Shown one piece after another: positions 41,864 to 57,505 of a stretch of 64,000 nucleotides of DNA (its first letter is position 1; each line of letters begins with the position of its first letter). Both the position numbers and the translations under genes were made by a program. This DNA comes from a phage: the sequence record PZ379177.1; one strand, written 5' to 3'. The notes beneath the pieces were generated by a model. It saw only the letters and a list, made by a program, of their open reading frames with translations. It had not been told where the DNA came from and did not search any database.

Positions 41864-42511
41864 TTATCCTGTGGCCTGCATATTGCGTACATACTTCTGC
41901 TCTAATGAATAGATGAAGTCGGCGACCGTCAATCCTTTGGTGTGCCACTCATACATTGTGTAGCCTGTATTCAGGAAATAGCCGCGCACTTTATCCATCG
42001 CTTCAGCTTCCTCCATGGAAGCCATCAGCGCGGCGACGTTATCATAAGAAGGCACAAATCCCTTCTTGCGTAGCGCATTGCGCAAATCTTTAGTTCTGAA
42101 TCCAATCTTGCACGGGTCATCACGGCCCGTTGATGATGCAACCTTCGGCAAAGCAAGGAACTCTTTGAGGAACATCGAGATGTTCAGGTCGCCTGCATCA
42201 TCAAGCTTCTGGAGTCGGTTGCGACCGCGCCCCTTGAATTCACTCGCACGGGGGTGAGCGCCAAAACAGTGCGCACCTTCCAATTTAGGGTCGATGATCA
42301 TCAAATCTTTTCCTACGCGCAATTCAACGTAGTAAAGGTATGTCTCATCGACAAGCTTCGTGCGTTTACAGGTGATGGAGTCCTTATCGTAACCAAAACC
42401 ACGCAACACGGTTGAAATCATCCGGTTCATTTCTTCTCCGTGAACGTCACTCTCTTTGTTCAGTTCACCGAGATGTTGAAAGAATTTAGCGATGTTGATT
42501 GCTTTATTCAT
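41864..42511 (-). CDS. Hypothetical early protein
   Basis: 215-aa ORF abutting the helicase gene. Confidence 0.5.
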   Translation of the reverse strand: MNKAINIAKFFQHLGELNKESDVHGEEMNRMISTVLRGFGYDKDSITCKRTKLVDETYLYYVELRVGKDLMIIDPKLEGAHCFGAHPRASEFKGRGRNRLQKLDDAGDLNISMFLKEFLALPKVASSTGRDDPCKIGFRTKDLRNALRKKGFVPSYDNVAALMASMEEAEAMDKVRGYFLNTGYTMYEWHTKGLTVADFIYSLEQKYVRNMQATG

Positions 42512-44181
42512 CAGAATTCATCCTTATCTCTTCCTAAAGAACGTTTGCGCTCAATAACCTTCTTCAAGAATTCAATATCTTCAGGGTCAGACTCGTCGCG
42601 AATAAGATACGCTAAGATAGTCATCAAGTCAGAAATGTATTCCCCTGCTTCATTCTTAATCAGCGGCGTAAAGTATCCACGCTGGTTGCGATAGGTCGCA
42701 GGCTCAAATCCAAGCTTCGACATGTGCGGCGCAAGGGTACGTGAGAAAGGCGACTTGCCGCACTTAGCTCTGAATCCCATAGCGATTGCACCACTGGTGA
42801 TGTGCCAGCGTCCGCTGTGATGTCGGTCATAAGGCGCGGTAATGACGACTTCAACAAGGTCGTTGTCGACCATCTCATCACGGATAACGCCGCGAGCACG
42901 TTCCATTTCATTCTTGCTAAACTCAGTAAGCATGCGAGATGTTTCACCAACAAACGCGTTGTAACCTGCTTCGCCGTGCTTCTCCATCCATGCAGCGCAC
43001 TCAGCCATCAATTGCCAAACGTCTTCTTTCAAAGTGGAAAGATCAGCTTGGAAGTCTTTCGACCAGTTCGGCTGCCCGTCCTTGTCAGCAAGTTGGCCAA
43101 CAAAGATAGGATATACACGACGGTTGCCCGTGTCATCACGCTGCATACCTGCGTATTCGTTGCCGTCCATGATAGCAATCCACTGGCGTGGTTTAACCTG
43201 CGTATCTTCAAATTTGAAGTCCAGGTCATCTTCCGTCTTAGTCAGGAATGCTTTCATGTTTTCGATGTCAGCCTTTTTAAAGCCTGTCATCTCGCCAACG
43301 TTCGCGATAATTGAGCGACCCGTAATAGCTCGCAAGAACGGGTTGAAGTTCTGCGCGGCCAAGTTCAACGGAATCGGTGTTGCGTGGCGGTCGTTCATAA
43401 TAGCTTCGCAAAGTAGCTTACTAAAATAACTCTTCCCTGCGTTCTGGCCGCCGATGAGCGCGATGGAGATTGGCGCTTGACATCCAGGGTTTGTCAGGCG
43501 GTTGTAGAGCGATAGCCAAAAATACACACCGATTTGTCGGTTTAACTCTGTATCGAACGGTCGGAATAGCTCGATAAGGTATTTTTCAATGCGCGCAGTA
43601 CCGTCCCATTCAGGAAGCTTCTTGTAGAAGAAGTCCATCAGGTCGTCGCGCTGATAACGCATGGCCCATTCCTTATAGGATTGAGCGACCTGACGTGAGT
43701 TTGGGTTGGACAGTCCTGCTGCGTCGACAGCGGCAACTATCTCTGTGACTTCCAAAGTACGGTCGGTGAATGTTTCGCCGCGATGGTCGACTAAGCGCCC
43801 ACGAAAAGTATCTTTGTGAGGGAATGGAACAACGCCACTTCCCTTATCAAACAACGCGTCGAAAACCGCATAACGGTTCATGTCACTCGTCCGGTCTGCC
43901 TGTAGAACGAAGTCATCTTTGGTAGGCTTGTAGTGAGGGAACTTGATTACCTGAAGTGAGGCGAGCAAGCGTGCTCTTTCAACCAAGTCTTCTTCACCGT
44001 AGCATTCCATGCGCTCTGCATCTTTCTCAACAGCCTTATGCTGGAGGCTGATTTTAGCTCTGGTGCCTTGCTGCTCTGCCGCTTGCATCTCTTCTGAAAC
44101 ACCAGCGTCTTGAATTTCGTCAAAGATTGCACCAAATTCATCACCTGTATCCTCTGGAAGATTGTCATGTTCAATTGACAT
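42511..44181 (-). CDS. VirE/D5-like P-loop DNA helicase (primase-associated)
   Basis: 556 aa; Walker A IALIGGQNAGKSYF; WDGTARIEKYLIELF region typical of phage VirE-family helicases. Confidence 0.7.
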   Translation of the reverse strand: MSIEHDNLPEDTGDEFGAIFDEIQDAGVSEEMQAAEQQGTRAKISLQHKAVEKDAERMECYGEEDLVERARLLASLQVIKFPHYKPTKDDFVLQADRTSDMNRYAVFDALFDKGSGVVPFPHKDTFRGRLVDHRGETFTDRTLEVTEIVAAVDAAGLSNPNSRQVAQSYKEWAMRYQRDDLMDFFYKKLPEWDGTARIEKYLIELFRPFDTELNRQIGVYFWLSLYNRLTNPGCQAPISIALIGGQNAGKSYFSKLLCEAIMNDRHATPIPLNLAAQNFNPFLRAITGRSIIANVGEMTGFKKADIENMKAFLTKTEDDLDFKFEDTQVKPRQWIAIMDGNEYAGMQRDDTGNRRVYPIFVGQLADKDGQPNWSKDFQADLSTLKEDVWQLMAECAAWMEKHGEAGYNAFVGETSRMLTEFSKNEMERARGVIRDEMVDNDLVEVVITAPYDRHHSGRWHITSGAIAMGFRAKCGKSPFSRTLAPHMSKLGFEPATYRNQRGYFTPLIKNEAGEYISDLMTILAYLIRDESDPEDIEFLKKVIERKRSLGRDKDEF

Positions 44182-45490: not shown

Positions 45491-46573
45491 CTATTTTATG
45501 CCACCTGCACGACGATTTATCATGTCAAGTTGATTCTCAATATAAGGCATGACGATTGCTTCAACAAAAGCAGTCCAACCTTTCTTGCCTTCCCCTTTCC
45601 GGTGACAGTCGTGAGCGCAACCGAAAACGAATTCATGTTCAGCGCCAGGGATTGGGCCGCGAAAATAAGCGCCGTATGGGTCGCCGTTGGTGTGTTCTTC
45701 ACCCCAAGGACAGATGATGCGGCATTTGCCTGACATGTTTTCAACAACATCGCCATCGGACCCTTCACCCATCTTATTGCGAGCAAGGATTTGCTGGGCT
45801 ATTTTATACCAAACAGCATCATATTTGTATTCGTCAACGTCAATTTGAATTTCACGCTTTTGCGGCATAACGACGTGGAAACCGAAGGCTTGGCAAATCT
45901 CTTCGATTGTGTAGCGCAAAGAATAGTCTGCATGAACAAGTCGGCAGCGGAACGGGTCGCCGTTCTCATCGACATATTTATAGGGGCCGTCGTGAGTCAC
46001 ACGCTTGTTGTTGATGCACCCAGGAACACGGCCCACGCGCGTTACGTCTTTAATCGTGTTGTCGCCGCCCTTCTTGAGTACCATGTTAACGAAAGACCCA
46101 AGGAACGCTTTGAACTGAATAAGATGGTCAATCGGTTCTTTAAAGAAGTACCAAAGCTGGTGGTTGTTCGGTGAAGTCTCGACGATGACAGTCGGCTTCA
46201 GTCGCTCGAAAAAGAATTCCAAATCTAAATCGCCTTTGGACCCTTTACCGTGACCGATGTCGTCGACCATCATCGCCATACCGTGACCAAAGGCCGACTC
46301 TGTACGCCAGTATCGCATCTCACCCGTCTTTGGGTTGGGAGACTTACGCATCGAACTGATGCAAGCATAGCCGTTTTGGTGCTGCATGAGCGGCTTGCCC
46401 AACTTCCAAGGCTTAGGCCAGAAGCTGCTGTTGATCTTCTTGCCGCGTTCGTCGGTCTGTACCGTTGCTTCAGGAGCAAACACCGTCATGACGCGCTCAT
46501 CTTCTGGAATGCCTCTTTGGAGTTCTGTTAAAAACTCTTCGATTATTTTTGCTTCTTCTCTTAAACTAGCCAT
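45491..46573 (-). CDS. PrimPol-like (archaeo-eukaryotic-type) primase with C-terminal Cys/His cluster
   Basis: 360 aa; acidic MVDDIGHG, then ETSPNNHQLWYFF (SxxxxH motif), and C-terminal CPWGEEH...CAHDCH. Confidence 0.65.
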   Translation of the reverse strand: MASLREEAKIIEEFLTELQRGIPEDERVMTVFAPEATVQTDERGKKINSSFWPKPWKLGKPLMQHQNGYACISSMRKSPNPKTGEMRYWRTESAFGHGMAMMVDDIGHGKGSKGDLDLEFFFERLKPTVIVETSPNNHQLWYFFKEPIDHLIQFKAFLGSFVNMVLKKGGDNTIKDVTRVGRVPGCINNKRVTHDGPYKYVDENGDPFRCRLVHADYSLRYTIEEICQAFGFHVVMPQKREIQIDVDEYKYDAVWYKIAQQILARNKMGEGSDGDVVENMSGKCRIICPWGEEHTNGDPYGAYFRGPIPGAEHEFVFGCAHDCHRKGEGKKGWTAFVEAIVMPYIENQLDMINRRAGGIK

Positions 46574-48397: not shown

Positions 48398-49243
48398 GTG
48401 AATATGGCCGAAGCAATCAAAGTATTATCTAAAGAAGAAAAACAAGCAGCCGCAGCAGAACGTCGTCGCGTGGCTGAAGAAAAACGCCTGGCTAAAAAGA
48501 AAGAAGCCGAAGAAAAACGCCAGAAGCGTGAGCAGGAAAAACAAGCCAAGCGTGAAGAAGCTGCGCTGAAACGCAAGCAAGCTGCTGATGAGAAGGCTCA
48601 GAAGCGTGCTGAAGAAGCAGCTAAGAAAGCTAAAGAGCGTGCAGAAAAGGCTGCCGCTAAGAAGGCAGAGCGTGAAGCCGCTAAAGCCGCTAAAGAAATT
48701 GAAAAGGCAAAGGCGAAAGAAGAAGCCAAGCGCCTGAAAGCTGAGCAGGCTGCGGCCAAGAAAGCTGAGCGTGATCAAGCCCGTGCTGCAGCGAAGGCCG
48801 AAAAAGAGAAGGCAAAAGAAGAAGCTAAAGCGAAACGCAAGGCAGAGCGTGAAGCTGCTAAGATTGCGGCGAAAGAAGCTGCAGAACAGCAGAAAGAACA
48901 GCGTAAGAAAGAAGCTGAAGAACGTCGCAAAGCCATCGCAGAACGTAAGGCTGCTAAAAAGGCAAACGGTCAGCGTCGTGCAAAAGCCACTCACTTCATC
49001 TACACTGGCAATGGCCTGAGCCAGCCGCAAGAGCATTCCACCCGTGGACGCGTTCTGGCGGCGATCAAAGAAGGCGAAGTTGGCGTGGCGCAGTCTATCG
49101 ATGAGCTGGGCGAAAAAGTTAAAGATCAACTGTTTGGCGCTTCCGTTCGCTCCTACCTGAGCAAGCTGGAAGAGATGGGCCACATCGAGTTTGTCGATGT
49201 TGAATCCAATGACGATGCCGAAGACGGTGATCAAGCGGAATAA
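48398..49243 (+). CDS. Lys/Ala/Glu-rich charged helical protein with globular C-terminal domain
   Basis: 281 aa; about 190 aa of KAE low-complexity (AEEKRQKREQEKQAKREEAALKRKQAADEKAQKRAEEAAKKAKERAEKAAAKK...) followed by a roughly 80-aa non-repetitive tail. Confidence 0.6.
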   Translation: MNMAEAIKVLSKEEKQAAAAERRRVAEEKRLAKKKEAEEKRQKREQEKQAKREEAALKRKQAADEKAQKRAEEAAKKAKERAEKAAAKKAEREAAKAAKEIEKAKAKEEAKRLKAEQAAAKKAERDQARAAAKAEKEKAKEEAKAKRKAEREAAKIAAKEAAEQQKEQRKKEAEERRKAIAERKAAKKANGQRRAKATHFIYTGNGLSQPQEHSTRGRVLAAIKEGEVGVAQSIDELGEKVKDQLFGASVRSYLSKLEEMGHIEFVDVESNDDAEDGDQAE

Positions 49244-49271: not shown

Positions 49272-49298
49272 GACCCACACTTGTTGTGGGTCTTTTTT
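49272..49298 (+). terminator. Rho-independent terminator
   Basis: Hairpin GACCCACA-CTTGT-TGTGGGTC followed by TTTTTT, directly after the KAE-rich gene. Confidence 0.7.
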
Positions 49299-49377: not shown

Positions 49378-50373
49378 ATGAACATGAAACAACCTGTAAT
49401 GATTATCGGCGGCGGCTTGGCAGGACTTATTACCGCGTGTCACTTCCCGAACTCTATTGTGTACGAAGCAGGGGAGCGAGCGCCACAGCACAAGGCGCTG
49501 CTACGCTTTCGCGGCGAAGAAGTAAGCCGTATTACCGGAATACCTTTTAAGGCCGTGACAGTTGACAAGGCTGTGTATTTTCGCGGTAACTACTACCACG
49601 ACCATTGCCCAATTAACCTTGCAAATATGTATTCCATGAAGGTCACCAATCAGTTTGGCAGCCGTTCAATCATGAAGCTTAAGACTGCAACGCGTTATAT
49701 TGCGCCTGATGACTTTTATGATCAGCTTGTCGACAAACTGGGTGACCGCATATTCTTTAATACTCCGGTTGATACTCTTTGCGGCTATAGCGAGACGCCA
49801 ATCATCAACACGTCGCCGCTGCCAGTAATGATGAAGCTTGCTGGGATTGATCAAAAGCTTGATTTCTCATTTGATAAAGCAAACATTCGCGTTTACCGCT
49901 TTAAGATTAAACGTAAGTGTGATTTGTATCAGACAATTTACTTCCCTGACTACTCCGTCAGAACTTACCGCGCATCAATTACTGGTGACACACTTATCAT
50001 TGAAACCATTCCTTTGGTCAGCGTGAGTGAAGCTGCAGTTGAAGCCGCTGGCGGCATCACTCGTTACCGTGACATGAAGCTGCGCGCAGAAGTCGACGAA
50101 GTGTTGACAGCCTTTGGCCTCTCATGGAGTGACATCGCTCTTGAAGAAGTTGAAAAGGTCGACCAGAAATATGGCAAGATTGTCGACATTCCGAAAGACT
50201 TGCGACACGCCCTACTCCTGCAGCTGACCATGGATTTAAACGTGTTTAGTGTCGGTCGATTTGCTACCTGGCGCAACATTTTGCTTGATGACGTCGCTCA
50301 TGACCTTGTTGAAGTTGAAAAACTCATCAAAGCAAATAACTATCAAAAATTTGCTTATATTGCTAATAAATAA
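49378..50373 (+). CDS. FAD/NAD(P)-binding Rossmann-fold oxidoreductase-like protein
   Basis: 331 aa; N-terminal dinucleotide-binding motif VMIIGGGLAGLITA (GxGxxG). Confidence 0.55.
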   Translation: MNMKQPVMIIGGGLAGLITACHFPNSIVYEAGERAPQHKALLRFRGEEVSRITGIPFKAVTVDKAVYFRGNYYHDHCPINLANMYSMKVTNQFGSRSIMKLKTATRYIAPDDFYDQLVDKLGDRIFFNTPVDTLCGYSETPIINTSPLPVMMKLAGIDQKLDFSFDKANIRVYRFKIKRKCDLYQTIYFPDYSVRTYRASITGDTLIIETIPLVSVSEAAVEAAGGITRYRDMKLRAEVDEVLTAFGLSWSDIALEEVEKVDQKYGKIVDIPKDLRHALLLQLTMDLNVFSVGRFATWRNILLDDVAHDLVEVEKLIKANNYQKFAYIANK

Positions 50374-50438: not shown

Positions 50439-50885
50439 ATGAAACGAATCACTGGAATCGCGCTTGCCGCGACTGCTATTCTCGGCACCATGTATATGGA
50501 AGCGACTGAAGCCGCTGTCCGTACTTCCGATTCAATCGCTGTTTACGATTGTGAAGCGATGGACGGTAAGACCGCAGCAACGACTGGTGCAAAGATTACC
50601 ACTTACATCGGTGTGAATGAGCAAGAAGGTCTGAATATTCAGATTCAGGGATTCACGGGAAAAGGTGTCAACCGGACTCCGTGGATGCAACGTTTCACTT
50701 TCGTCCAGCCTCGTTCAACTGGCGGCTTTATCAACCTGATTGGTGAAAACCGTTCTGGTGCAGAAATCTTTACATCAATGAGTTCTAATAATGAACCAAA
50801 GAAAAGTTTTCAGTTGCTTTATAACGCACAATTCGTTTATCATTGCGTTTTCTCTGGTGATCAGCAACTGGTAAATTACCGTTAA
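50439..50885 (+). CDS. Secreted protein
   Basis: 148 aa; signal-peptide-like N-terminus MKRITGIALAATAILGTMYMEATEA. Confidence 0.5.
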   Translation: MKRITGIALAATAILGTMYMEATEAAVRTSDSIAVYDCEAMDGKTAATTGAKITTYIGVNEQEGLNIQIQGFTGKGVNRTPWMQRFTFVQPRSTGGFINLIGENRSGAEIFTSMSSNNEPKKSFQLLYNAQFVYHCVFSGDQQLVNYR

Positions 50886-50898
50886 TAGGATAATTAAA

Positions 50899-51672
50899 AT
50901 GAAAGTTGAATTAGTAAGATACACCCAAGATGCACTTGAACTTCTGCTGGAAACAAAGAACACGCGCATGACTGGCAAGCCTGTCTCTGAGATGACAGAG
51001 TCAGAGAAACAAGAGCACTGGCGATATATGCTTGACACCATCAAGTCACCTTTTGACTTTGTGGACTATATCTTTGACATCACCGACGTGTCTAAGAACA
51101 TGACCCATCAAATGGTGCGCACCCGCACAGGCGCATATCAAGAGCGCACCAGTCGCGCTCAGGAGTCGTCAGCGTTTGATGCGATTCGTCCGAAGGCTTT
51201 TGAACATCCTGAAGGGTCCACAAGCGTGCTTGGCGAAAAGTGGGATGATGCCATGGCGACTATTGACGCAATCTATCAAGAGTTGCGCGCGGCGGGTGCA
51301 GAAATCCAAGATGCGCGTGGCGTCCTGCCTTCGAATATGCAAACGCACATCATGGCCAAGTTCAACTTGCGCACGCTGCAACAAATGGCATCCAACCGCC
51401 TCTGCACGCGCACTCAAGGCGAGTACCAAAACGTATTTCGCGCAATGGTTGCTGAAGTTCTTAATGTGCACCCGTGGGCAAACCCTCTCTTACAGCCGCT
51501 GTGCATCGGTATGGGTAAGTGCGCATTCCCTCGTCACGGTAAGGCCCATTGCCCTTGGTATCGTGATTGGATGGATACCACTGCACAGCAAGAAGAATTA
51601 CGCATCCAGTTTTGGGATGCCGCGCCAATCACCAATAATCCAGTTGCCAAAGATGGAGTATCAAAAGGATGA
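50899..51672 (+). CDS. ThyX-like flavin-dependent thymidylate synthase homolog with variant motif
   Basis: 257 aa; THQMVRTRTGAYQERTS aligns with the ThyX signature RHR-x7/8-S, but His is replaced by Thr (RTR). Confidence 0.55.
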   Translation: MKVELVRYTQDALELLLETKNTRMTGKPVSEMTESEKQEHWRYMLDTIKSPFDFVDYIFDITDVSKNMTHQMVRTRTGAYQERTSRAQESSAFDAIRPKAFEHPEGSTSVLGEKWDDAMATIDAIYQELRAAGAEIQDARGVLPSNMQTHIMAKFNLRTLQQMASNRLCTRTQGEYQNVFRAMVAEVLNVHPWANPLLQPLCIGMGKCAFPRHGKAHCPWYRDWMDTTAQQEELRIQFWDAAPITNNPVAKDGVSKG

Positions 51673-52517
51673 AAACCTTAAACATTTTTGATTTAGACGG
51701 CACCATATTTAATGACGCTTGGCGTTTACAATACATCGATAAAGAAAACAAGAACTATGATGGCTATCACGAGCGATTGACTCATGATGATCACTTTCCT
51801 AATATAGCTTCGCAAGTAGGCTGGTCACTAAGTGAAGGCGCTGTTGAGTTCTGGACAGCGCGACCTAACAAGTGGCGTGCGACTACAACTAAGAAGTTGG
51901 AAGATACTTTCGGATGTATGCCTGGCGTAATCATACGCATGCGCGGCGATGATGATTTGCGTAGCGCGGCAGCATTGAAAGCAGATTACATGCGTCGACT
52001 CCCTTCAGGCTATGATCAGGTGTATGTGTACGACGACCGCGCAGACGTTTTGGATGCCATGATCATTGAAGCGCGTCCAAAGACTGGCGTCACGTTCCGA
52101 TTCTACCTTTGCACCAATGGTAGCTTCACGGAATACCACACACTTTTTAACCGCTCTAATAAAGCGAAAGTGCCTACTACGCAGGACACGCTGGGAGATT
52201 CGTTAGAAGCAACCAAGCCTGCCACCGCCGCCGATATTCTTGATGCGATGGCCGCGACCTTCCGTGAGCGCAACGCCGTTTATGGCGATAACGCTGTGAT
52301 GGTAGGTCAGGTTATGCAGGTGCTTTTCCCTAATGGCGTAACGTTGAAAACGCCGGAAGACTACCACATGTGGCATCTGTTCGAGCTTAAGATTGTCAAG
52401 CTTACACGCTTTGCAATCAGCGGCCTGAAGCACGAAGACTCTATACACGATGATGGTGTTTACAGCGCCATGTGTGAACGTCTTGTCAACACCCATAATA
52501 TTAATTTCAATAAATAG
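51669..52517 (+). CDS. HAD-superfamily phosphatase-like protein with C-terminal extension
   Basis: 282 aa; N-terminal motif I IFDLDGTIF (DxDGT); start overlaps the upstream stop. Confidence 0.55.
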   Translation: MKTLNIFDLDGTIFNDAWRLQYIDKENKNYDGYHERLTHDDHFPNIASQVGWSLSEGAVEFWTARPNKWRATTTKKLEDTFGCMPGVIIRMRGDDDLRSAAALKADYMRRLPSGYDQVYVYDDRADVLDAMIIEARPKTGVTFRFYLCTNGSFTEYHTLFNRSNKAKVPTTQDTLGDSLEATKPATAADILDAMAATFRERNAVYGDNAVMVGQVMQVLFPNGVTLKTPEDYHMWHLFELKIVKLTRFAISGLKHEDSIHDDGVYSAMCERLVNTHNINFNK

Positions 52518-52581: not shown

Positions 52582-53265
52582 ATGAAAAAAGTAATTGTTG
52601 TAACTGGCTGCAATTCCGGTCTTGGTAAATCCATTTTTGACACCCTTGGTGCTTACGGTCATGAAGTTGTCGGTATTGATTTGGAGAACGGCTATGACAT
52701 CCGTAACGCGAAACAGATGAAAGAGCTTCTCTCTCAATACGACGTAGAAGGCTTGATCAACTGCGCTGGCGTCAACTCCAACAACTGGTTCGAAGATGTT
52801 AACTACGAAGAGTTCAATCGCGTTATGCACACCAACGCCTTCTCTTTCGTCAACACGACTCAGGCCGCGCTGAAAAGTCTTATTGACAACAAAGGTTTTG
52901 TGATCAACATCGTTTCCAACGCTGCGCATATTCCTATGACGTCCAGCTTGTGTTATAATGCATCCAAGGCTGCTGCGCTTATGATTAGCAAGCAGATGGC
53001 TCACGAGCTTACGCCTAAGTACGGAATCACGGTATTCTCTATTAGTCCTAACAAGCTACGTGGTACTGGCATGTCCAAACAGATTGAAGATGCTGTTTGC
53101 GCGACTCGCGGCTGGACTCCTGAGTATGCTGCTGAATACCAGAAAAAGGCGTTGATGAACGGATTGGAGACTGAGCCGCAAGTAATTGCTGACTTCATTC
53201 GCCATATCTTAATTACGGGCGCATGGCGCTTTATGTCTGGTACTGATATTCCATTTGGGAAATAA
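52582..53265 (+). CDS. Short-chain dehydrogenase/reductase (SDR)
   Basis: 227 aa; cofactor motif VIVVTGCNSGLGKSI (TGxxxGxG) and catalytic YNASKAA (YxxxK). Confidence 0.75.
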   Translation: MKKVIVVTGCNSGLGKSIFDTLGAYGHEVVGIDLENGYDIRNAKQMKELLSQYDVEGLINCAGVNSNNWFEDVNYEEFNRVMHTNAFSFVNTTQAALKSLIDNKGFVINIVSNAAHIPMTSSLCYNASKAAALMISKQMAHELTPKYGITVFSISPNKLRGTGMSKQIEDAVCATRGWTPEYAAEYQKKALMNGLETEPQVIADFIRHILITGAWRFMSGTDIPFGK

Positions 53266-53268
53266 ATC

Positions 53269-53439
53269 ATGACTATCAAAGTTGTTGTAGAAGTGATTGG
53301 CGACGTAGCAGAAGTGAAGATTGATCAAGAAGGTGTTGGATTTGAAGTAATAAGAATCGAAAACGCAAAGATTAACCACGAGCGCGTCGGTGCCATTGAG
53401 ACTTATTCCATCGAAGGCAACACAGTAATTAATCAATAA
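53269..53439 (+). CDS. Small ORF (56 aa)
   Basis: ATG immediately after the SDR stop; product MTIKVVVEVIGDVAEVKIDQEGVGFEVIRIENAKINHERVGAIETYSIEGNTVINQ. Confidence 0.3.
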   Translation: MTIKVVVEVIGDVAEVKIDQEGVGFEVIRIENAKINHERVGAIETYSIEGNTVINQ

Positions 53440-53459: not shown

Positions 53460-54011
53460 ATGCCACATTTTAAAATTGAACAAATCGCCCTGTCAATTCC
53501 AGGTGCTCAGCGCGCACAGAATTTCCTGGCTAAAATCGGCCTGACAGAATGGTTCCATGATCACGTTGTTGCTACTGGTCGCGTATTTGAAGCTGATGTC
53601 TTTAAGGGTCAGCGCGGCGATTGCACCAACGAAGCTGACTTGCGCTTCAACTATCAGGCTGGCAACGGCACCGATGGCGGCGCTGGTAAGCCTCTTGAGC
53701 TTGAAATTCTTGACTATACAAAAGGTTGCAACTGGATTCACGAAAACATCGAATACATCGATGCGCACGACAATCAGGTTAGCCATCTTGGTATGCACGT
53801 GACTGCCGCTGAACTTGCTGAATGGCGCAAGTTCTTTAAAGAAGAAGGCATTCAGGTTGCGCAGGAAGTCGTAACCGACTCTCACACCAACCCAAATATT
53901 GCTGGTCAGCGTCGTTACAACTATGTGATCTTTGATACGCGTGAGATCATCGGCGTTGATTTGAAGTTTATCGTGCGCTTGAATCAAGACGGTACTCCGT
54001 ACACTGTATAA
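53460..54011 (+). CDS. Hypothetical enzyme, possibly glyoxalase/VOC-like fold
   Basis: 183 aa; His/Glu-containing beta-alpha segments (LELEILDY, SHLGMHV). Assignment weak. Confidence 0.4.
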   Translation: MPHFKIEQIALSIPGAQRAQNFLAKIGLTEWFHDHVVATGRVFEADVFKGQRGDCTNEADLRFNYQAGNGTDGGAGKPLELEILDYTKGCNWIHENIEYIDAHDNQVSHLGMHVTAAELAEWRKFFKEEGIQVAQEVVTDSHTNPNIAGQRRYNYVIFDTREIIGVDLKFIVRLNQDGTPYTV

Positions 54012-54027
54012 CGAATCGTGAATCTGT

Positions 54028-54052
54028 GGCCGTCCTAATGGGCGGCCTTTTT
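54028..54052 (+). terminator. Putative rho-independent terminator
   Basis: Hairpin GGCCGTCC-TAAT-GGGCGGCC followed by TTTTT. Confidence 0.55.
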
Positions 54053-54065
54053 GTAGGAGGCCAAT

Positions 54066-54608
54066 GTGTTATTTCTCCCTTATGACTTCGAAACAACCGG
54101 ATTGACCGTGCACCCGAAAGCGCCGCTTGGGATGCAGCCGCGCCCTATTGAATTTGCAGGTCTGTTGACAGACGGCAAAGAGATTATTGAAACGTTTGAA
54201 TTCATAATTAATCCTGAAATCGTGATTGAAGAAATTATCACAAAGATTACCGGATTAACAAATGAAGACCTTGAGTGCAATCCACCATTCATCAATTTTG
54301 TCCCGCAGCTAAAAGAAATCTTCAAGAAGACGGCTGCCACTATCGCGCACAACCATGCGTTCGATAAAAACATTCTTGATTATGCACTACAGCGCGAAGG
54401 ACTTACGCTTGATGATGTTAATTTTCCAGAAATAAACATTTGTACAGTTGAGCAAACCTTGCCTATTTTTGGCCGAAGAGTTAAGCTTCAAGAGCTGTAT
54501 GAATTATATTTCGGAAAATATGAACAGAAACACCGTGCATTAGACGACGTAATATTACTGCACAAAGTCTGCCAACAAATTGGCGTATATGACATCTGGA
54601 GTAAATAA
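54066..54608 (+). CDS. DnaQ-like 3'-5' exonuclease (DEDDh family)
   Basis: 180 aa; Exo I motif FLPYDFETTGL, Exo II-like HNHAFDKNIL, Exo III HRALDDVILL. GTG start with AGGAGG RBS; stop overlaps the DnaE start. Confidence 0.75.
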   Translation: MLFLPYDFETTGLTVHPKAPLGMQPRPIEFAGLLTDGKEIIETFEFIINPEIVIEEIITKITGLTNEDLECNPPFINFVPQLKEIFKKTAATIAHNHAFDKNILDYALQREGLTLDDVNFPEINICTVEQTLPIFGRRVKLQELYELYFGKYEQKHRALDDVILLHKVCQQIGVYDIWSK

Positions 54609-57505
54609 TGTTTCCACAATTGAGAGTTCGCAGCGGTTACACGTTCAAAGAAGTTTATGGACGGCATCCTGAAATTATAGCACGGCTCAAAGAGTTGGGC
54701 TGCGAAGTCGCGGCATTAGTTGATAACAACACATGGGGTCACGTTCGCTGGGAAAAGGAATGCCAGAAAAATGATATTAAGCCTATGTTTGGAATGGAGA
54801 TTCCAATCATCGACCCTGATGCGGACCCGAAAAAGGGATTCAAACCGAAGGCTTGGATATTGGCCCTTGACTTAAAATCTTTTTACAACGCTACAACACT
54901 TGCAACGCAGCGTGGTGGTCTTACCCGTGCAGAGTTCGGGGCGCTTGATGGCGTCGTTAAATTCTGTGGCGGTGCCGTGGAACTGCTGCGGCCAGAGGAC
55001 TACGACTATATAGACGTCAACCCATCGTCGTTCCTTTTGGCAAAGCGCCAGGCGTTGGCTCATCGTAGCAGTGGAAGGCCGCTGGTTTTAACCGGATACA
55101 ATCACATGCCTTCTCCTGAGCACGTTGACTTCGCTTATGCGTGGGAAGTGCGCGACACGGTTAAGCCGCATTGCATCGTTGACGTTGAAGACTTGCGCAA
55201 ACAGCTTAAAGGCATCTTGACTGAAGATGAGCTTGATCAGGCAACGGCCAATGCCGTGGACATCGCGAACGGCATAGTCGGACTTGACTTGAAATTGCGT
55301 AAGGCACCGATTATTCACCTTGCTGGTGACATGGTAAAGCTTGCTCGCGAGGGGATGGAGTACCGTCTAAAAGCAGGTCACATCAAAGAATGGACTCAGG
55401 AATATGAGGACCGCTTCAACGAAGAAATTCACCAGATTCAGCTGAAAGATTTCGACTCATACTTTCTGGTGGTAGCGGACCTTGTACGATTCGCAAAAAC
55501 AAAAATGCTAGTCGGTCCTGCGCGCGGCTCATCGGCTGGTTCACTTGTTTGCTATTGCCTCGGCATCACGGAAGTGGACCCAATACCGTATAAACTGCTT
55601 TTTGCCCGATTCATCGACGTAAGCCGCGCCGACCTTCCTGACATCGACATCGACTTTGAAGATACCAAACGCTATATGGTGTTTGATTATCTTAAAGAGA
55701 AATACGGCGAAATGAACGTTGCAAAGCTTGGCAACATTAACACGCTTAAGGCCAACTCAGTAATGGCGCAGGTTGGTAAGAAGTTCAACATTGGATACCA
55801 CGAAACGGCCAACATTAAAAACGCACTGCTTGAATACTCATCCGGTGACGCCCGTTATGGCCACGGCCTGGAGGATACCTTTGCCACAACAACCACGGGT
55901 CAAGAGTTTGTGGCCAAATATCCTGATGCCGCGCGTTGCATGGGCGACCTTGAGATTCACCCGTCTCACACAGGTGTTCACGCAGCGGGAATCATTGTGT
56001 GTAATGACCCAATCTCTGATTATTGTACTGTAACTGCAGAAGGGATTGCACAAATTGATAAGCCTGACAGCGAATACCTTAACCTTTTGAAGCTTGATGC
56101 GCTGGGCCTTCGTACTCTCGGCATTATTTCTGATACAGGCGTTATTGATGCTGAAACGCTCTACGGCATCAAGCTTGATGATCAAAGCGTCCTTGACATT
56201 CTTAACGAAAACAAGATGTCAGGCATCTTCCAGTTTGAAGGCGACGCTGTACGCTCAGTAACAAACTTTGTGCACGTCGATAACTTTAACAAAATCGACA
56301 ACCTGACGGCTTTGGGTCGACCTGGCCCGTTGTCATCCGGTATGGCCCAGAAATACATTGAACGCGCAGCAGGGCGTGCGCCGATTGAATACGACGTGCC
56401 GCAGCTTGAGCCGTACTTAAAAGAGACTTACGGCGTGTTCCTTTACCAAGAGCAAATCATGGCCGTGGTTAAAGAGATTGGTTCATTTGACTGGGCGAAA
56501 ACATCCGCTGTGCGTAAGGCAATGTCAGGCCGTAAGGGTGAGGAATACTTTAACAAGCTTGGCGAAGACTTTGTTGCAGGCGCAATAAATAACGGCGTAC
56601 CGGAAGCGGATGCAAGAAAGCTTTGGCAGGCGATGGCTACGTTCGGGTCATGGGGCTTTAACAAGTCGCACTCCGTGTCATACGCGGTCGTGACCTACTG
56701 GACCTTGTGGCTTAAACGACACTACCCGTTGGAATTTGCCGCTGCTTGCTTACGCGCTGCTAAGGACGAAGACCAGACGATTGCGATATTACGTGAACTT
56801 GCGAAGGAAGGCGTGGATTATGTGCCAATCGACCCTGATCACTCTTCAATGAACTGGACCATCGCTAACGGAAAGCTAATCGGCGGCATCATGAACGCGA
56901 AAGGGTACGGAATGGTGAAGGCGATGAAGTATATCGAAGCACGTGAAGCCGGAACCTTAACGCAAAAGCAAAAGGACGCATTGGCCAATGCTGAAGTAAA
57001 ATACGGCGACCTTACAGAGATGCACACAAAGTTCGGCTGGGCGTATAATGACCCGTATCTGATTGGTGTGACGTCCGGCGCTTCAATACGCCAGATGAAG
57101 GAAGTCGGTGATGACGAGCGCGCAATAGTAATCGGCAAGTTGACAAAGAAAGTGCTTGCGGACGAGAACGAAGCAACACGCATCCGTAAACGACTTGAGC
57201 GCGGCATCTATACAAAGCACGGCAAGCTTAAAAAGGGTCTTCAAGTTGATGGCCGCTACGCAGAGTTTGACCAGTACGGGAACAAGCTTGAGACTCAGTT
57301 CATCGACCTTATGTGCAAAGACGACTCGACCGACTCGCCAATGCGCTTCAGGATTCGCCCAGAGAAGTTCCAGAAGTACGGGAAGTACATTGCTGAAAAC
57401 GTCGGGAACGGCGCATTCTTCCTGATGAAAGGTCGCAAGCTTGAAGGCATTGACATGTTCATCGTTGACGTGATCAAACAGGTGTATCCAGATGGCAACA
57501 AATAA
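54608..57505 (+). CDS. DNA polymerase III alpha-type (DnaE-like) replicative polymerase
   Basis: 965 aa; DnaE-like segments GPARGSSAGSLVCYCLGITEVDP and FNKSHSVSYAVVTYWTLWLKRHYPLEFAAACL. Confidence 0.85.
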   Translation: MFPQLRVRSGYTFKEVYGRHPEIIARLKELGCEVAALVDNNTWGHVRWEKECQKNDIKPMFGMEIPIIDPDADPKKGFKPKAWILALDLKSFYNATTLATQRGGLTRAEFGALDGVVKFCGGAVELLRPEDYDYIDVNPSSFLLAKRQALAHRSSGRPLVLTGYNHMPSPEHVDFAYAWEVRDTVKPHCIVDVEDLRKQLKGILTEDELDQATANAVDIANGIVGLDLKLRKAPIIHLAGDMVKLAREGMEYRLKAGHIKEWTQEYEDRFNEEIHQIQLKDFDSYFLVVADLVRFAKTKMLVGPARGSSAGSLVCYCLGITEVDPIPYKLLFARFIDVSRADLPDIDIDFEDTKRYMVFDYLKEKYGEMNVAKLGNINTLKANSVMAQVGKKFNIGYHETANIKNALLEYSSGDARYGHGLEDTFATTTTGQEFVAKYPDAARCMGDLEIHPSHTGVHAAGIIVCNDPISDYCTVTAEGIAQIDKPDSEYLNLLKLDALGLRTLGIISDTGVIDAETLYGIKLDDQSVLDILNENKMSGIFQFEGDAVRSVTNFVHVDNFNKIDNLTALGRPGPLSSGMAQKYIERAAGRAPIEYDVPQLEPYLKETYGVFLYQEQIMAVVKEIGSFDWAKTSAVRKAMSGRKGEEYFNKLGEDFVAGAINNGVPEADARKLWQAMATFGSWGFNKSHSVSYAVVTYWTLWLKRHYPLEFAAACLRAAKDEDQTIAILRELAKEGVDYVPIDPDHSSMNWTIANGKLIGGIMNAKGYGMVKAMKYIEAREAGTLTQKQKDALANAEVKYGDLTEMHTKFGWAYNDPYLIGVTSGASIRQMKEVGDDERAIVIGKLTKKVLADENEATRIRKRLERGIYTKHGKLKKGLQVDGRYAEFDQYGNKLETQFIDLMCKDDSTDSPMRFRIRPEKFQKYGKYIAENVGNGAFFLMKGRKLEGIDMFIVDVIKQVYPDGNK

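What the first reader, a model, noticed from the sequence alone, without database searches (positions are those of the whole stretch)
50899..51672. ThyX-like protein with RTR in place of the canonical RHR motif
The segment THQMVRTRTGAYQERTS aligns with the ThyX signature RHR-x7/8-S, but the His is replaced by Thr. Sequence around the motif is otherwise ThyX-like. A changed active-site residue could mean a different substrate or reaction from standard dUMP methylation.
Basis: partly seen in the sequence, partly recalled or inferred. Interest (0 to 1): 0.5.

Follow-up and report, generated by a model that had tools for sequence, protein, structure and literature searches.

The report
Virus-type ThyX paired with flavoprotein
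The gene is a genuine ThyX-type thymidylate synthase homologue, and its odd Thr is a harmless family trait. The virus-only family it belongs to always sits next to a second flavoprotein, in an operon that may build the modified thymine recently found in related phages.

Summary
ORF 50899-51672 (+, 257 aa) is a ThyX-fold protein (Pfam Thy1 E=3.5e-30), and R74-T75-R76 aligns with T. maritima R78-H79-R80.

The Thr alone does not indicate a new substrate:
- The canonical His only hydrogen-bonds the FAD phosphate/ribityl.
- In this subfamily the position varies (T 71, H 26, Q 15, S 8, N 6 of 130 representatives) within the same gene context.
- All six ThyX dUMP/FAD arginines are invariant.

The subfamily itself is unusual:
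- It is essentially virus-only.
- It scores below the NCBIfam thyX equivalog cutoff.
- It lacks the His53/Tyr91 pair.
- Wherever testable (about 160 loci), it lies directly downstream of a UDP-galactopyranose-mutase-like FAD protein, usually with a HAD phosphatase and often an SDR and a glyoxalase-like protein. In this window these genes form one terminator-bounded operon.

The window is a Wifcevirus, a genus resistant to restriction "without known protection". Its Pbunavirus relatives carry the same cassette. A 2025 preprint reports sugar- or polyol-substituted thymidine at TG sites in Pbunavirus DNA, with the biosynthetic genes unknown.

My best reading (about 0.45) is a competent dUMP C5 enzyme feeding such a pathway. 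A plain thymidylate synthase remains nearly as likely (about 0.4).

The parts
50899..51672 (+). ThyX-like CDS (257 aa), member of a virus-specific ThyX subfamily
   Evidence: ORF. Pfam PF02511 E=3.5e-30. phrog_85 E=6.9e-35. AF2 pLDDT 86.8. Foldseek finds ThyX structures only. TIGR02170 score 71.3, below the 87.9 cutoff.
51118..51126 (+). Codons for R74-T75-R76, the RTR in place of RHR
   Evidence: Sequence cgc acc cgc. Aligned to Tm R78-H79-R80. T is invariant in the 120 closest homologues.
51403..51552 (+). Segment carrying four invariant Cys codons: C169 (51403-05), C202 (51502-04), C208 (51520-22), C218 (51550-52). Candidate metal site spanning the core and the C-terminal extension.
   Evidence: All four present in 67 and all four absent in 59 of 130 representatives, with only 4 partial cases. 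pLDDT is 93-95 over residues 190-240. The geometry was not inspected.
49378..50373 (+). UGM-like FAD protein (331 aa, GxGxxG, phrog_4828), obligate upstream partner of the ThyX-like gene
50439..50885 (+). 148-aa ORF with a signal-peptide-like N-terminus, inserted between the partner genes
   Evidence: ORF. No Pfam or PHROG hit. Matched by tblastn only in the two Wifcevirus loci among the annotated loci L001-L008, and no match in the 80 IMG/VR loci. In many other loci the two partner genes abut.
51669..52517 (+). HAD (PNKP-phosphatase-like) protein with a conserved C-terminal helical domain. Its start overlaps the ThyX-like stop (ATGA).
   Evidence: Pfam HAD_PNKP E=3.7e-5. phrog_4889. Homologous to LMA2 gp57. 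The C-terminal domain is 48% identical in Rhizobium phage TM30 and weakly matches DUF6378. The overlap is read.
52582..53265 (+). Classical SDR (FabG-like, 227 aa)
   Evidence: Pfam adh_short E=1e-31. Near the cassette in 29 of 80 and 48 of 78 viral loci.
53269..53439 (+). 56-aa ORF
   Evidence: ORF. A small hypothetical CDS is annotated at the same relative position in phage Mansfield.
53460..54011 (+). Glyoxalase/VOC-like protein (183 aa)
   Evidence: Weak Pfam Glyoxalase_4 hit, E=0.09. Annotated as glyoxalase family in Mansfield. Near the cassette in 21 of 80 and 45 of 78 loci.
49272..49292 (+). Intrinsic-terminator-like hairpin plus T-run upstream of the operon
   Evidence: 8-bp stem followed by TTTTTT. 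Annotated as a terminator at the same place in Mansfield.
54028..54047 (+). Intrinsic-terminator-like hairpin plus T-run closing the operon
   Evidence: 8-bp stem with 7 GC pairs, followed by TTTTT. Annotated as a terminator in Mansfield.

Best explanation
The ORF encodes a catalytically competent ThyX-fold flavoenzyme. It binds FAD and dUMP and makes the C5-CH2 bond by the ThyX flavin relay.

Thr75 replaces a His whose side chain only hydrogen-bonds the FAD phosphate/ribityl. Another hydrogen-bonding side chain does the same job, so this is a family trait and not a substrate switch.

The unusual thing is the family. It is a virus-only ThyX branch that has lost the His53/Tyr91 pair, which in T. 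maritima ThyX stacks on folate or reduced flavin. It is always encoded just downstream of a UGM-like FAD protein. In this window it is co-transcribed with that protein, a HAD phosphatase, an SDR and a VOC protein.

I infer that this operon is a pyrimidine-C5 modification pathway. It would be the likely source of the sugar- or polyol-substituted thymidine reported at TG sites in Pbunavirus DNA, and of the unexplained restriction resistance of Wifcevirus. In that pathway the ThyX-like enzyme would supply the C5 one-carbon unit, either as dTMP or as 5-methylene/5-hydroxymethyl-dUMP.

Shown here: the fold, the conserved ligand-binding arginines, the variability of the Thr position, the gene linkage and the operon structure.
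Inferred: the partnership in function, the link to DNA modification, and the identity of the product.
For: ThyX identity:
- Pfam and PHROG hits; Foldseek finds only ThyX structures.
- Invariant across 45 diverse subfamily members: R74, R76, R86, R140, R158, R167, equivalent to Tm R78, R80, R90, R147, R165, R174.

Thr as a neutral trait:
- Role of the RHR residues in FAD binding (PMC6514825).
- Residue spectrum at the position.
- RHR, RTR, RNR and RSR forms in the same context.
- P0233 is RTR with a canonical His53/Tyr91.

Distinctness of the family:
- TIGR02170 score 71.3, below the 87.9 cutoff.
- Tm H53 aligns with I48 and Y91 with A87, both invariant in the clade. The role of that pair is described in PMC11940539.
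- Only 11 loci in 185,579 species genomes, all phage-like MAG contigs.

Linkage to the UGM-like gene:
- 77 of 80 viral loci have a UGM-like gene upstream on the same strand, median gap 42 nt.
- In the reverse search 73 of 78 have the ThyX-like gene downstream. All exceptions lie at contig ends.
- GenBank genus counts match exactly: Pseudomonas 292/292, Escherichia 27/27, Serratia 9/9, Xanthomonas 6/6.
- The trio also occurs in the unrelated 207-kb Rhizobium phage TM30.

Operon structure: terminators at 49272 and 54028, and an ATGA overlap with the HAD gene.

Link to DNA modification:
- Pbunavirus F8 and 14-1 DNA contain novel thymidine derivatives of 362 and 390 U, replacing about a quarter of T in TG context, with no known pathway genes (PMC12191111).
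- T followed by G accounts for 0.27 of T in those genomes, so essentially all TG sites are modified.
- Native Nanopore sequencing of Pbunavirus fails until the DNA is PCR-amplified.
- No ThyA-like gene in the window, so this is the only recognisable pyrimidine-C5 enzyme.
Against: - No biochemical or genetic data exist for any member of the subfamily.
- The gene linkage could reflect inherited synteny in one large Pol III-alpha phage lineage: 60 of 80 loci carry that polymerase nearby.
- In Rhizobium phage TM30 the gene lies beside dUTPase and ribonucleotide reductase, the ordinary dTMP-supply context.
- More distant members in actinophages lack the UGM-like partner yet also lack His53/Tyr91.
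- F8 and 14-1 carry different modifications but near-identical ThyX-like (93.8%) and UGM-like (97.3%) proteins, so these two cannot determine which group is attached.
- TG-specific, near-complete modification implies a DNA-level step, whereas the ThyX-like active site looks built for a mononucleotide.
- No DNA modification has been shown for any Wifcevirus.
- The HAD domain's best Pfam match is a polynucleotide 3'-phosphatase, which may be a repair function.
Confidence: 0.45

Rival explanations
1. It is an ordinary flavin-dependent thymidylate synthase (dUMP to dTMP) that boosts dTTP supply for a fast-replicating phage. The Thr and the loss of His53/Tyr91 are drift within a viral branch. The UGM-like neighbour is either unrelated or is a dedicated NAD(P)H-dependent reductase for a ThyX that lost its own NADPH site. 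The HAD, SDR and VOC genes do other jobs.
For: - All ligand-binding arginines are conserved.
- It is annotated as a thymidylate synthase in all related records.
- TM30 places the gene next to dUTPase and RNR.
- The motif residue toggles freely.
- P0262, a relative with Cys4 and a fully canonical motif, sits in a cellular chromosome context (ClpP, MFS, Tag), so the branch derives from real thymidylate synthases.
- Among the top Foldseek hits for the UGM-like model are NAD(P)H complexes of UGM and renalase.
- The HAD domain resembles a PNKP 3'-phosphatase.
Against: - A plain thymidylate synthase has no known need for an obligate partner, yet the pairing holds in about 160 loci.
- The score is below the thyX equivalog cutoff.
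- The folate/flavin-stacking His is lost.
- Pbunavirus needs some C5-pyrimidine chemistry for its modified T, and no other candidate is recognisable.
Confidence: 0.4
2. This is the first reader's reading: the His-to-Thr change in the motif re-tunes the active site for another substrate, for example dCMP or UMP.
For: - The substitution is invariant in the Wifcevirus/Pbunavirus clade.
- From memory, the ThyX homologue PolB methylates UMP, so substrate shifts do occur in this fold.
Against: - The residue contacts the FAD phosphate/ribityl, not the substrate.
- H, T, Q, N and S are interchangeable in one family and one gene context.
- The equivalents of R174, R90 and Q75 are kept; as I recall these are the residues that read the uracil.
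- P0233 combines RTR with an otherwise canonical motif.
Confidence: 0.05
3. It is a degenerate, non-catalytic ThyX relic kept as a structural or regulatory subunit.
For: Four positions of the extended ThyX motif differ from the canonical enzyme.
Against: - Six functional arginines and many core residues are invariant over sequences only 26-60% identical.
- The model is confident and ThyX-like.
- The gene is retained in hundreds of phage genomes.
Confidence: 0.03

Closest known systems
Canonical flavin-dependent thymidylate synthase ThyX (T. maritima TM0449, M. tuberculosis ThyX; PF02511, EC 2.1.1.148)
   Same: - Same fold (TM 0.65/0.76 to 1o26).
- Same set of arginines: Tm R78, R80, R90, R147, R165, R174, plus Q75.
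- FAD-contacting Asn163/Arg165 equivalents are kept.
   Different: - RTR instead of RHR.
- Ser88 aligns with Thr.
- His53 aligns with Ile, Tyr91 with Ala, and Arg74 with His.
- A 60-residue C-terminal extension carries a Cys quartet (C169, C202, C208, C218).
- Scores below the TIGR02170 cutoff.
- Virus-only distribution.
- Obligate UGM-like partner gene.
Thymidine hypermodification pathways of phages M6, ViI, SP10 and PhiW-14 (Lee et al. 2018; PMC8989533)
   Same: - In relatives (Pbunavirus), part of the thymidines carry a bulky group on the C5-methyl carbon in a sequence-dependent way.
- A thymidylate-synthase-type enzyme is the only recognisable source of that carbon.
- The gene sits in the replication module.
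   Different: - Known pathways start with a ThyA-family dUMP hydroxymethylase, as stated in PMC8989533. As I recall they then use a 5-hmdU DNA kinase and transferases.
- Here there is no ThyA homologue, and no kinase or transferase was recognised among the ORFs scanned.
- The candidate enzyme is ThyX-type and is paired with a UGM-like flavoprotein.
PolB, the ThyX-family UMP C5-methylase of polyoxin biosynthesis (from memory, not checked here)
   Same: It is a precedent for a ThyX-fold enzyme recruited to a secondary pathway with altered substrate use.
   Different: As I recall, PolB keeps the RHR motif and its specificity lies in loops. There is no evidence here for a ribonucleotide substrate.
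UDP-galactopyranose mutase and protoporphyrinogen oxidase flavoproteins (for the partner gene)
   Different: - Only 11-17% identity.
- About 330 aa against 365-510 aa.
- No Pfam GLF or amine-oxidase hit.
- The substrate is unknown.

Membership tests
ThyX / flavin-dependent thymidylate synthase | Thy1 domain and ThyX fold | tested here: met
   PF02511 scores 105.7 bits against a 24.8 cutoff. All top PDB fold matches are ThyX.
ThyX / flavin-dependent thymidylate synthase | Signature RHR-x7-S | tested here: not met
   The sequence reads R74-T75-R76-x7-T84, with a Ser only at x8.
ThyX / flavin-dependent thymidylate synthase | Arginines that bind dUMP and FAD (Tm R78, R80, R90, R147, R165, R174) | tested here: met
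   R74, R76, R86, R140, R158 and R167 are invariant in 120 close and 45 distant homologues.
ThyX / flavin-dependent thymidylate synthase | Extended-motif His53 and Tyr91 (Mtb H69 and Y108; the extended motif itself is recalled from Ulmer 2008, which is not held in the library) | tested here: not met
   I48 and A87 occupy those columns and are invariant in the clade. The role of the pair is described in PMC11940539.
ThyX / flavin-dependent thymidylate synthase | NCBIfam TIGR02170 equivalog trusted cutoff | tested here: not met
   71.3 bits against a cutoff of 87.9.
ThyX / flavin-dependent thymidylate synthase | FAD-bound homotetramer converting dUMP to dTMP with CH2-THF and NAD(P)H; complements a thyA mutant | not testable with these tools
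   No experimental report was found for any member of this subfamily (paper searches). Mycobacteriophage L5 gp48, which I recall from memory as experimentally characterised, has a canonical RHR/His/Tyr sequence and lies outside this subfamily.
5-hmdU-based thymidine hypermodification system | ThyA-family dUMP hydroxymethylase | tested here: not met
None is annotated in the first 50 kb of the related Bas99 genome.
5-hmdU-based thymidine hypermodification system | 5-hmdU DNA kinase and pyrophosphorylase/transferase enzymes | tested here: inconclusive
   No such Pfam families were found in the roughly 25 ORFs scanned. Not every window ORF was scanned, and remote homologues could be missed.
5-hmdU-based thymidine hypermodification system | Non-canonical thymidine in virion DNA | not testable with these tools
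   Reported for Pbunavirus F8 and 14-1. For Wifcevirus only restriction insensitivity is reported.
UDP-galactopyranose mutase (partner gene) | UGM fold | tested here: met
UDP-galactopyranose mutase (partner gene) | Sequence-family membership (Pfam GLF) and UDP-sugar binding residues | tested here: not met
   No Pfam or NCBIfam hit. Identity to UGMs is 11-17%. Binding residues were not mapped.

The most novel reading that the evidence does not exclude
The UGM-like/ThyX-like cassette is a previously unrecognised, flavin-based route to hypermodified thymidine. The ThyX-like enzyme would not complete reductive methylation. It would either release a 5-methylene or 5-hydroxymethyl-dUMP, or use a sugar aldehyde in place of the folate methylene. 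The partner flavoprotein, HAD phosphatase, SDR and VOC enzymes would then elaborate the sugar or polyol substituent.

The reported masses fit several routes equally well:
- 5-hmdU + tetritol - H2O, or 5-hmdU + pentose - H2O
- dT + polyol/sugar - H2
- dU + pentose - H2O + H2, or dU + hexose - H2O
Each pair gives 362.33 and 390.34.

Wifcevirus would then carry a related modification, which would explain its restriction resistance.
Probability: 0.3. Interest if true: 0.85.

Novelty: new variant of a known kind. Interest (0 to 1): 0.55.

Why it matters
Pbunavirus phages are among the most used therapeutic phages for P. aeruginosa. Their DNA was only recently found to be hypermodified, and no biosynthetic genes are known. 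Wifcevirus phages resist restriction without any known protection.

A conserved, virus-only ThyX branch welded to a UGM-like flavoprotein gives a concrete candidate locus of two to five genes for that chemistry. It can be tested directly by knockouts and LC-MS.

If the ThyX-like enzyme proves non-canonical, it would be the flavin-dependent counterpart of the split in the ThyA family between thymidylate synthases and hydroxymethylases. If it proves to be an ordinary thymidylate synthase, the result still shows that the 'RHR' His and the His53/Tyr91 pair are dispensable. That matters for ThyX mechanism and inhibitor design, and for automatic annotation rules.

Tried and rejected
- I looked for a displaced canonical His. 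None exists; H70 aligns with Tm R74.
- I tested whether T75 is strain-specific. It is not: 120 of 120 homologues have it.
- I looked for an experimentally characterised member. Mycobacteriophage L5 gp48 turned out to be canonical (RHR, GHESVFEH, SQRY), so it says nothing about this branch.
- Three papers that could give mutational data on the motif His (Ulmer 2008, PMC2258874; Liu & Yang 2004, PMC515151; Koehn 2012, PMC3465422) are not held. Searches for 'His79' and 'Arg78' found nothing.
- PDB sequence searches for the UGM-like, HAD and VOC proteins gave only noise. The SDR is generic FabG-like.
- I considered F8 orf70 (57% identical between F8 and 14-1) as a specificity factor. It is coiled-coil-like, has no enzyme domain, and has no homologue in the window.
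- I searched for literature on Fe-S or Zn ThyX. Nothing relevant came up.
- I considered the Cys quartet as a virus-specific novelty and rejected that. P0262 has it with a fully canonical motif in a cellular gene context.
- The genome-contig scan with the broad alignment A4 failed for lack of a conserved stretch and was repeated with A5.
- Model coordinates are not exposed, so I could not check whether the four Cys converge or whether T75 reaches the FAD phosphate.
- Only 42 kb of the 207-kb TM30 genome was inspected for a second thymidylate synthase, and none was seen there.
Full report
**1. The observation**

The window carries an ATG-to-TGA ORF at exactly 50899..51672 on the + strand (257 aa), with an AGGA 9 nt upstream of the ATG. 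Its stop overlaps the start of the next gene (ATGA at 51669-51672). Codons 51118-51126 read cgc-acc-cgc, giving R74-T75-R76 within THQMVRTRTGAYQERTS.

The protein matches Pfam Thy1 (PF02511, E=3.5e-30, 105.7 bits against a 24.8 cutoff, residues 5-193) and the PHROG thymidylate-synthase family phrog_85 (E=6.9e-35). HMMER against PDB chains aligns the motif onto T. maritima ThyX ('hqmvrtrtgayqertsra' over 'RQWFRHRIASYNELSGRY'). A MAFFT alignment with TmThyX gives the same register.

An AlphaFold2 model built on 58 sequences is confident (pLDDT 86.8, pTM 0.80). In the PDB it finds only ThyX structures (1o26_A, TM 0.65/0.76).

**2. Where the window comes from**

The region is 94-96% identical to Escherichia phages FEC19, WFH, ECML-117 and Bas98-100 of genus Wifcevirus. 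The ThyX-like protein is 48% identical to that of Pseudomonas Pbunavirus (PB1-like) phages. tblastn finds it in 487 GenBank phage records.

**3. What the Thr means**

T75 is present in 120 of the 120 closest homologues (>=52% identity). A search of 1.84 billion cluster representatives found 1,764 relatives at E<=1e-3. Among the 130 full-length sequences of the best 150, the middle residue of RxR is T 71, H 26, Q 15, S 8, N 6, Y 2, A 1, K 1.

In solved ThyX structures the RHR residues hydrogen-bond the AMP phosphate, the ribityl and the FMN phosphate of FAD. Only the first Arg contacts the isoalloxazine (PMC6514825). A polar residue at that position is thus a cofactor-backbone ligand.

The six arginines equivalent to Tm R78, R80, R90, R147, R165 and R174 are the only invariant columns across 45 members that are 26-59% identical to the query. 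One representative, P0233, combines RTR with a canonical His53/Ser88/Arg90/Tyr91 set. RHR, RTR, RNR and RSR forms all sit in the same gene context.

I conclude that the His-to-Thr change is a tolerated family trait and not a substrate switch. In particular, the equivalent of R174, which as I recall reads the uracil O4/N3, is kept. That argues against dCMP as a substrate.

**4. What is different about the family**

- The protein scores 71.3 bits against the NCBIfam thyX equivalog, below the 87.9 cutoff.
- Tm His53 aligns with I48, Tyr91 with A87 and Arg74 with H70, all invariant or nearly so in the clade. In T. maritima ThyX, His53 stacks on the folate pterin or the reduced flavin and hydrogen-bonds Tyr91, gating the folate site (PMC11940539). 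In the few representatives that retain His at this column, Tyr is usually retained too (5 of 7).
- A C-terminal extension plus C169 forms a Cys quartet that is all-or-none: CCCC in 67, none in 59, partial in 4. This is not virus-specific. P0262 has it with a fully canonical motif in a cellular gene context (ClpP, MFS transporter, adenine glycosylase). It is probably a structural metal site of an older ThyX branch.
- A pattern scan of one genome for each of 185,579 species found only 11 loci. All lie on MAG contigs of 2.6-59 kb, and 10 of them have a UGM-like gene upstream; most also have Pol III alpha downstream, which points to phage DNA.
- Mycobacteriophage L5 gp48, which I recall as experimentally characterised, has a canonical sequence and lies outside this branch. 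I found no experimental data for any member of the branch.

**5. The neighbourhood**

Two strong intrinsic-terminator-like hairpins, at 49272-49292 and 54028-54047, bracket a + strand unit. Phage Mansfield has terminators annotated at the same positions. The unit contains:

| Coordinates | Product | Evidence |
|---|---|---|
| 49378-50373 | FAD protein, 331 aa, GxGxxG | |
| 50439-50885 | 148-aa ORF | |
| 50899-51672 | ThyX-like protein | |
| 51669-52517 | HAD phosphatase, PNKP-type (Pfam E=3.7e-5) with a conserved C-terminal helical domain weakly matching DUF6378 | |
| 52582-53265 | Classical SDR (adh_short E=1e-31) | |
| 53269-53439 | 56-aa ORF | |
| 53460-54011 | Glyoxalase/VOC-like protein | |

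The unit lies inside the replication module, between a RecD/Dda helicase upstream and the exonuclease, Pol III alpha and SNF2 helicase downstream.

**6. Linkage test**

| Search | Loci | Result |
|---|---|---|
| IMG/VR, ThyX-subfamily alignment | 80 (37-50% identity) | 77 have a UGM-like gene upstream on the same strand; median gap 42 nt, under 300 nt in 53. The 3 exceptions start at or near a contig end. |
| IMG/VR, UGM-like alignment (reverse) | 78 new | 73 have the ThyX-like gene downstream. The 5 exceptions have under 1.9 kb of downstream DNA. |
| GTDB genome contigs | 11 | 10 have both genes; the remaining contig is cut off 8 nt upstream of the ThyX-like gene. |

HAD-like genes accompany the pair in 58 of 80 and 66 of 78 loci, the SDR in 29 and 48, and the VOC protein in 21 and 45.

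In GenBank phages the UGM-like protein occurs in 362 records. Its genus counts equal those of the ThyX-like protein: Pseudomonas 292, Escherichia 27, Serratia 9, Xanthomonas 6.

Pbunavirus LMA2, F8 and 14-1 keep the trio gp65/gp59/gp57, and so does Burkholderia phage WTB. The unrelated 207-kb Rhizobium phage TM30 has a UGM-like gene (34% identity), an RNR-type ThyX-like gene without the Cys quartet, and the HAD C-terminal domain (48% identity) within 7 kb, next to dUTPase and ribonucleotide reductase.

More distant ThyX-like proteins of actinophages (Gumball gp68, RQR with the Cys quartet) have no UGM-like neighbour.

**7. Literature link**

[quoted passage not shown] The exception is EcoP1_I (PMC11990801). 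This window contains 17 EcoRI and 5 EcoRV sites.

A 2025 preprint on END nucleases shows the following (PMC12191111):
- Pbunavirus F8 DNA resists enzymes whose recognition sites contain TG.
- F8 and 14-1 DNA contain novel thymidine-derived nucleosides of 362 and 390 U. These are described as a tetrose sugar alcohol derivative and a circularised aldopentose derivative, and they replace about a quarter of T.
- The pathway is unknown, because these phages lack known modification genes.

T followed by G accounts for 0.27 of all T in F8 and 14-1 (0.263 in this window). 'One quarter' therefore means essentially all TG sites, which implies a sequence-specific, DNA-level step. Native Nanopore sequencing of Pbunavirus fails and is rescued by PCR amplification.

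The masses fit several routes equally well:
- 5-hmdU + tetritol or pentose - H2O
- dT + the same - H2
- dU + pentose - H2O + H2, or dU + hexose - H2O

There is no ThyA-like gene in the window, and none is annotated in the first 50 kb of the related Bas99 genome.

**8. Interpretation**

The enzyme almost certainly still binds FAD and dUMP and forms the C5-CH2 bond. The Thr is not the reason to suspect anything unusual.

The reasons are the lost His53/Tyr91 pair, the sub-threshold equivalog score, the virus-only distribution, the strict pairing with a UGM/PPO-like flavoprotein, the co-transcribed sugar-type enzymes, and the unexplained C5-methyl-linked sugar or polyol modification in relatives that carry the same cassette. 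On that basis I favour, at about 0.45, that the operon is a pyrimidine-C5 modification pathway with the ThyX-like enzyme supplying the one-carbon unit.

Several facts keep a plain thymidylate synthase nearly as likely (about 0.40), possibly one served by the UGM-like protein as a reductase:
- The linkage may be inherited synteny in a large Pol III-alpha phage lineage.
- The TM30 context is that of ordinary dTMP supply.
- Actinophage members lack the partner gene.
- F8 and 14-1 differ in modification but hardly at all in these two proteins (93.8% and 97.3% identical).
- The TG specificity needs a DNA-level enzyme that has not been identified.
- No Wifcevirus modification has been demonstrated.

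**9. Verdict**

The gene is already annotated as a thymidylate synthase in public records. I found no description in the literature available here of the subfamily's departures from the ThyX motif, its restriction to viruses, or its obligate flavoprotein partner. Together these give a testable candidate locus for a recently discovered DNA modification. I class it as a new variant of a known kind, with interest 0.55.

Noticed in passing
window 49378-50373 with 50899-51672; loci L009-L180: A UGM-like FAD protein gene lies directly upstream of the ThyX-like gene in essentially every testable locus: 77 of 80, 73 of 78 and 10 of 11, with all exceptions at contig ends. The median intergenic gap is 42 nt. 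GenBank genus counts for the two proteins match exactly.
   Followed up: yes
window 51403-51552 (C169, C202, C208, C218): An all-or-none Cys quartet links the ThyX core to a C-terminal extension (67 with all four, 59 with none, of 130). It is a probable Zn or Fe-S site two residues from the R174 equivalent. It also occurs in a canonical-motif ThyX (P0262) in a cellular context. The geometry could not be checked.
   Followed up: partly
window 52203-52517; L003 7225-7455; L002 7819-8127: The C-terminal ~85-aa helical domain of the HAD protein is the best-conserved part of that gene. It is 48% identical in a Rhizobium jumbo phage and weakly matches DUF6378 (E about 0.03). Its function is unknown.
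   Followed up: partly
window 50439-50885: A 148-aa ORF with a signal-peptide-like N-terminus (MKRITGIALAATAILG...) is inserted between the UGM-like and ThyX-like genes. It has no family hit. Among the loci compared it was matched only in the two Wifcevirus records.
   Followed up: no
window 49272-49292 and 54028-54047: Two strong terminator-like hairpins with T-runs bracket the seven-ORF unit within the replication module.
   Followed up: yes
whole window: TA is under-represented (observed/expected 0.68) and TG/CA are over-represented (1.15). 26.3% of T are followed by G. The window has 17 EcoRI, 5 EcoRV and 71 EcoP1 (AGACC) sites, although the genus is reported to be insensitive to EcoRI and EcoRV in vivo and sensitive to EcoP1_I.
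   Followed up: partly
L089 13894-15090 versus L090 13997-15301 (F8 and 14-1 orf70): This is the most divergent protein in the otherwise 94-99% identical replication region of two Pbunavirus phages that carry different thymidine modifications (57% identity). It is coiled-coil-like with a CxxC-rich stretch and has no homologue in the window.
   Followed up: partly
window 42511-44181 (-), 45491-46573 (-), 54608-57505 (+): The replication module combines a VapE-like primase/helicase, a gene corresponding to the one annotated in phage Mansfield as a RepB-type primase, and a bacterial-type Pol III alpha with a separate epsilon-like exonuclease. The same polymerase accompanies the ThyX cassette in 60 of 80 metagenomic loci.
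   Followed up: no
window 48398-49243: The 281-aa ORF upstream of the operon shares only its C-terminal ~90 residues with Pbunavirus gp66 and Burkholderia phage WTB (50-54% identity). It has no family hit.
   Followed up: no
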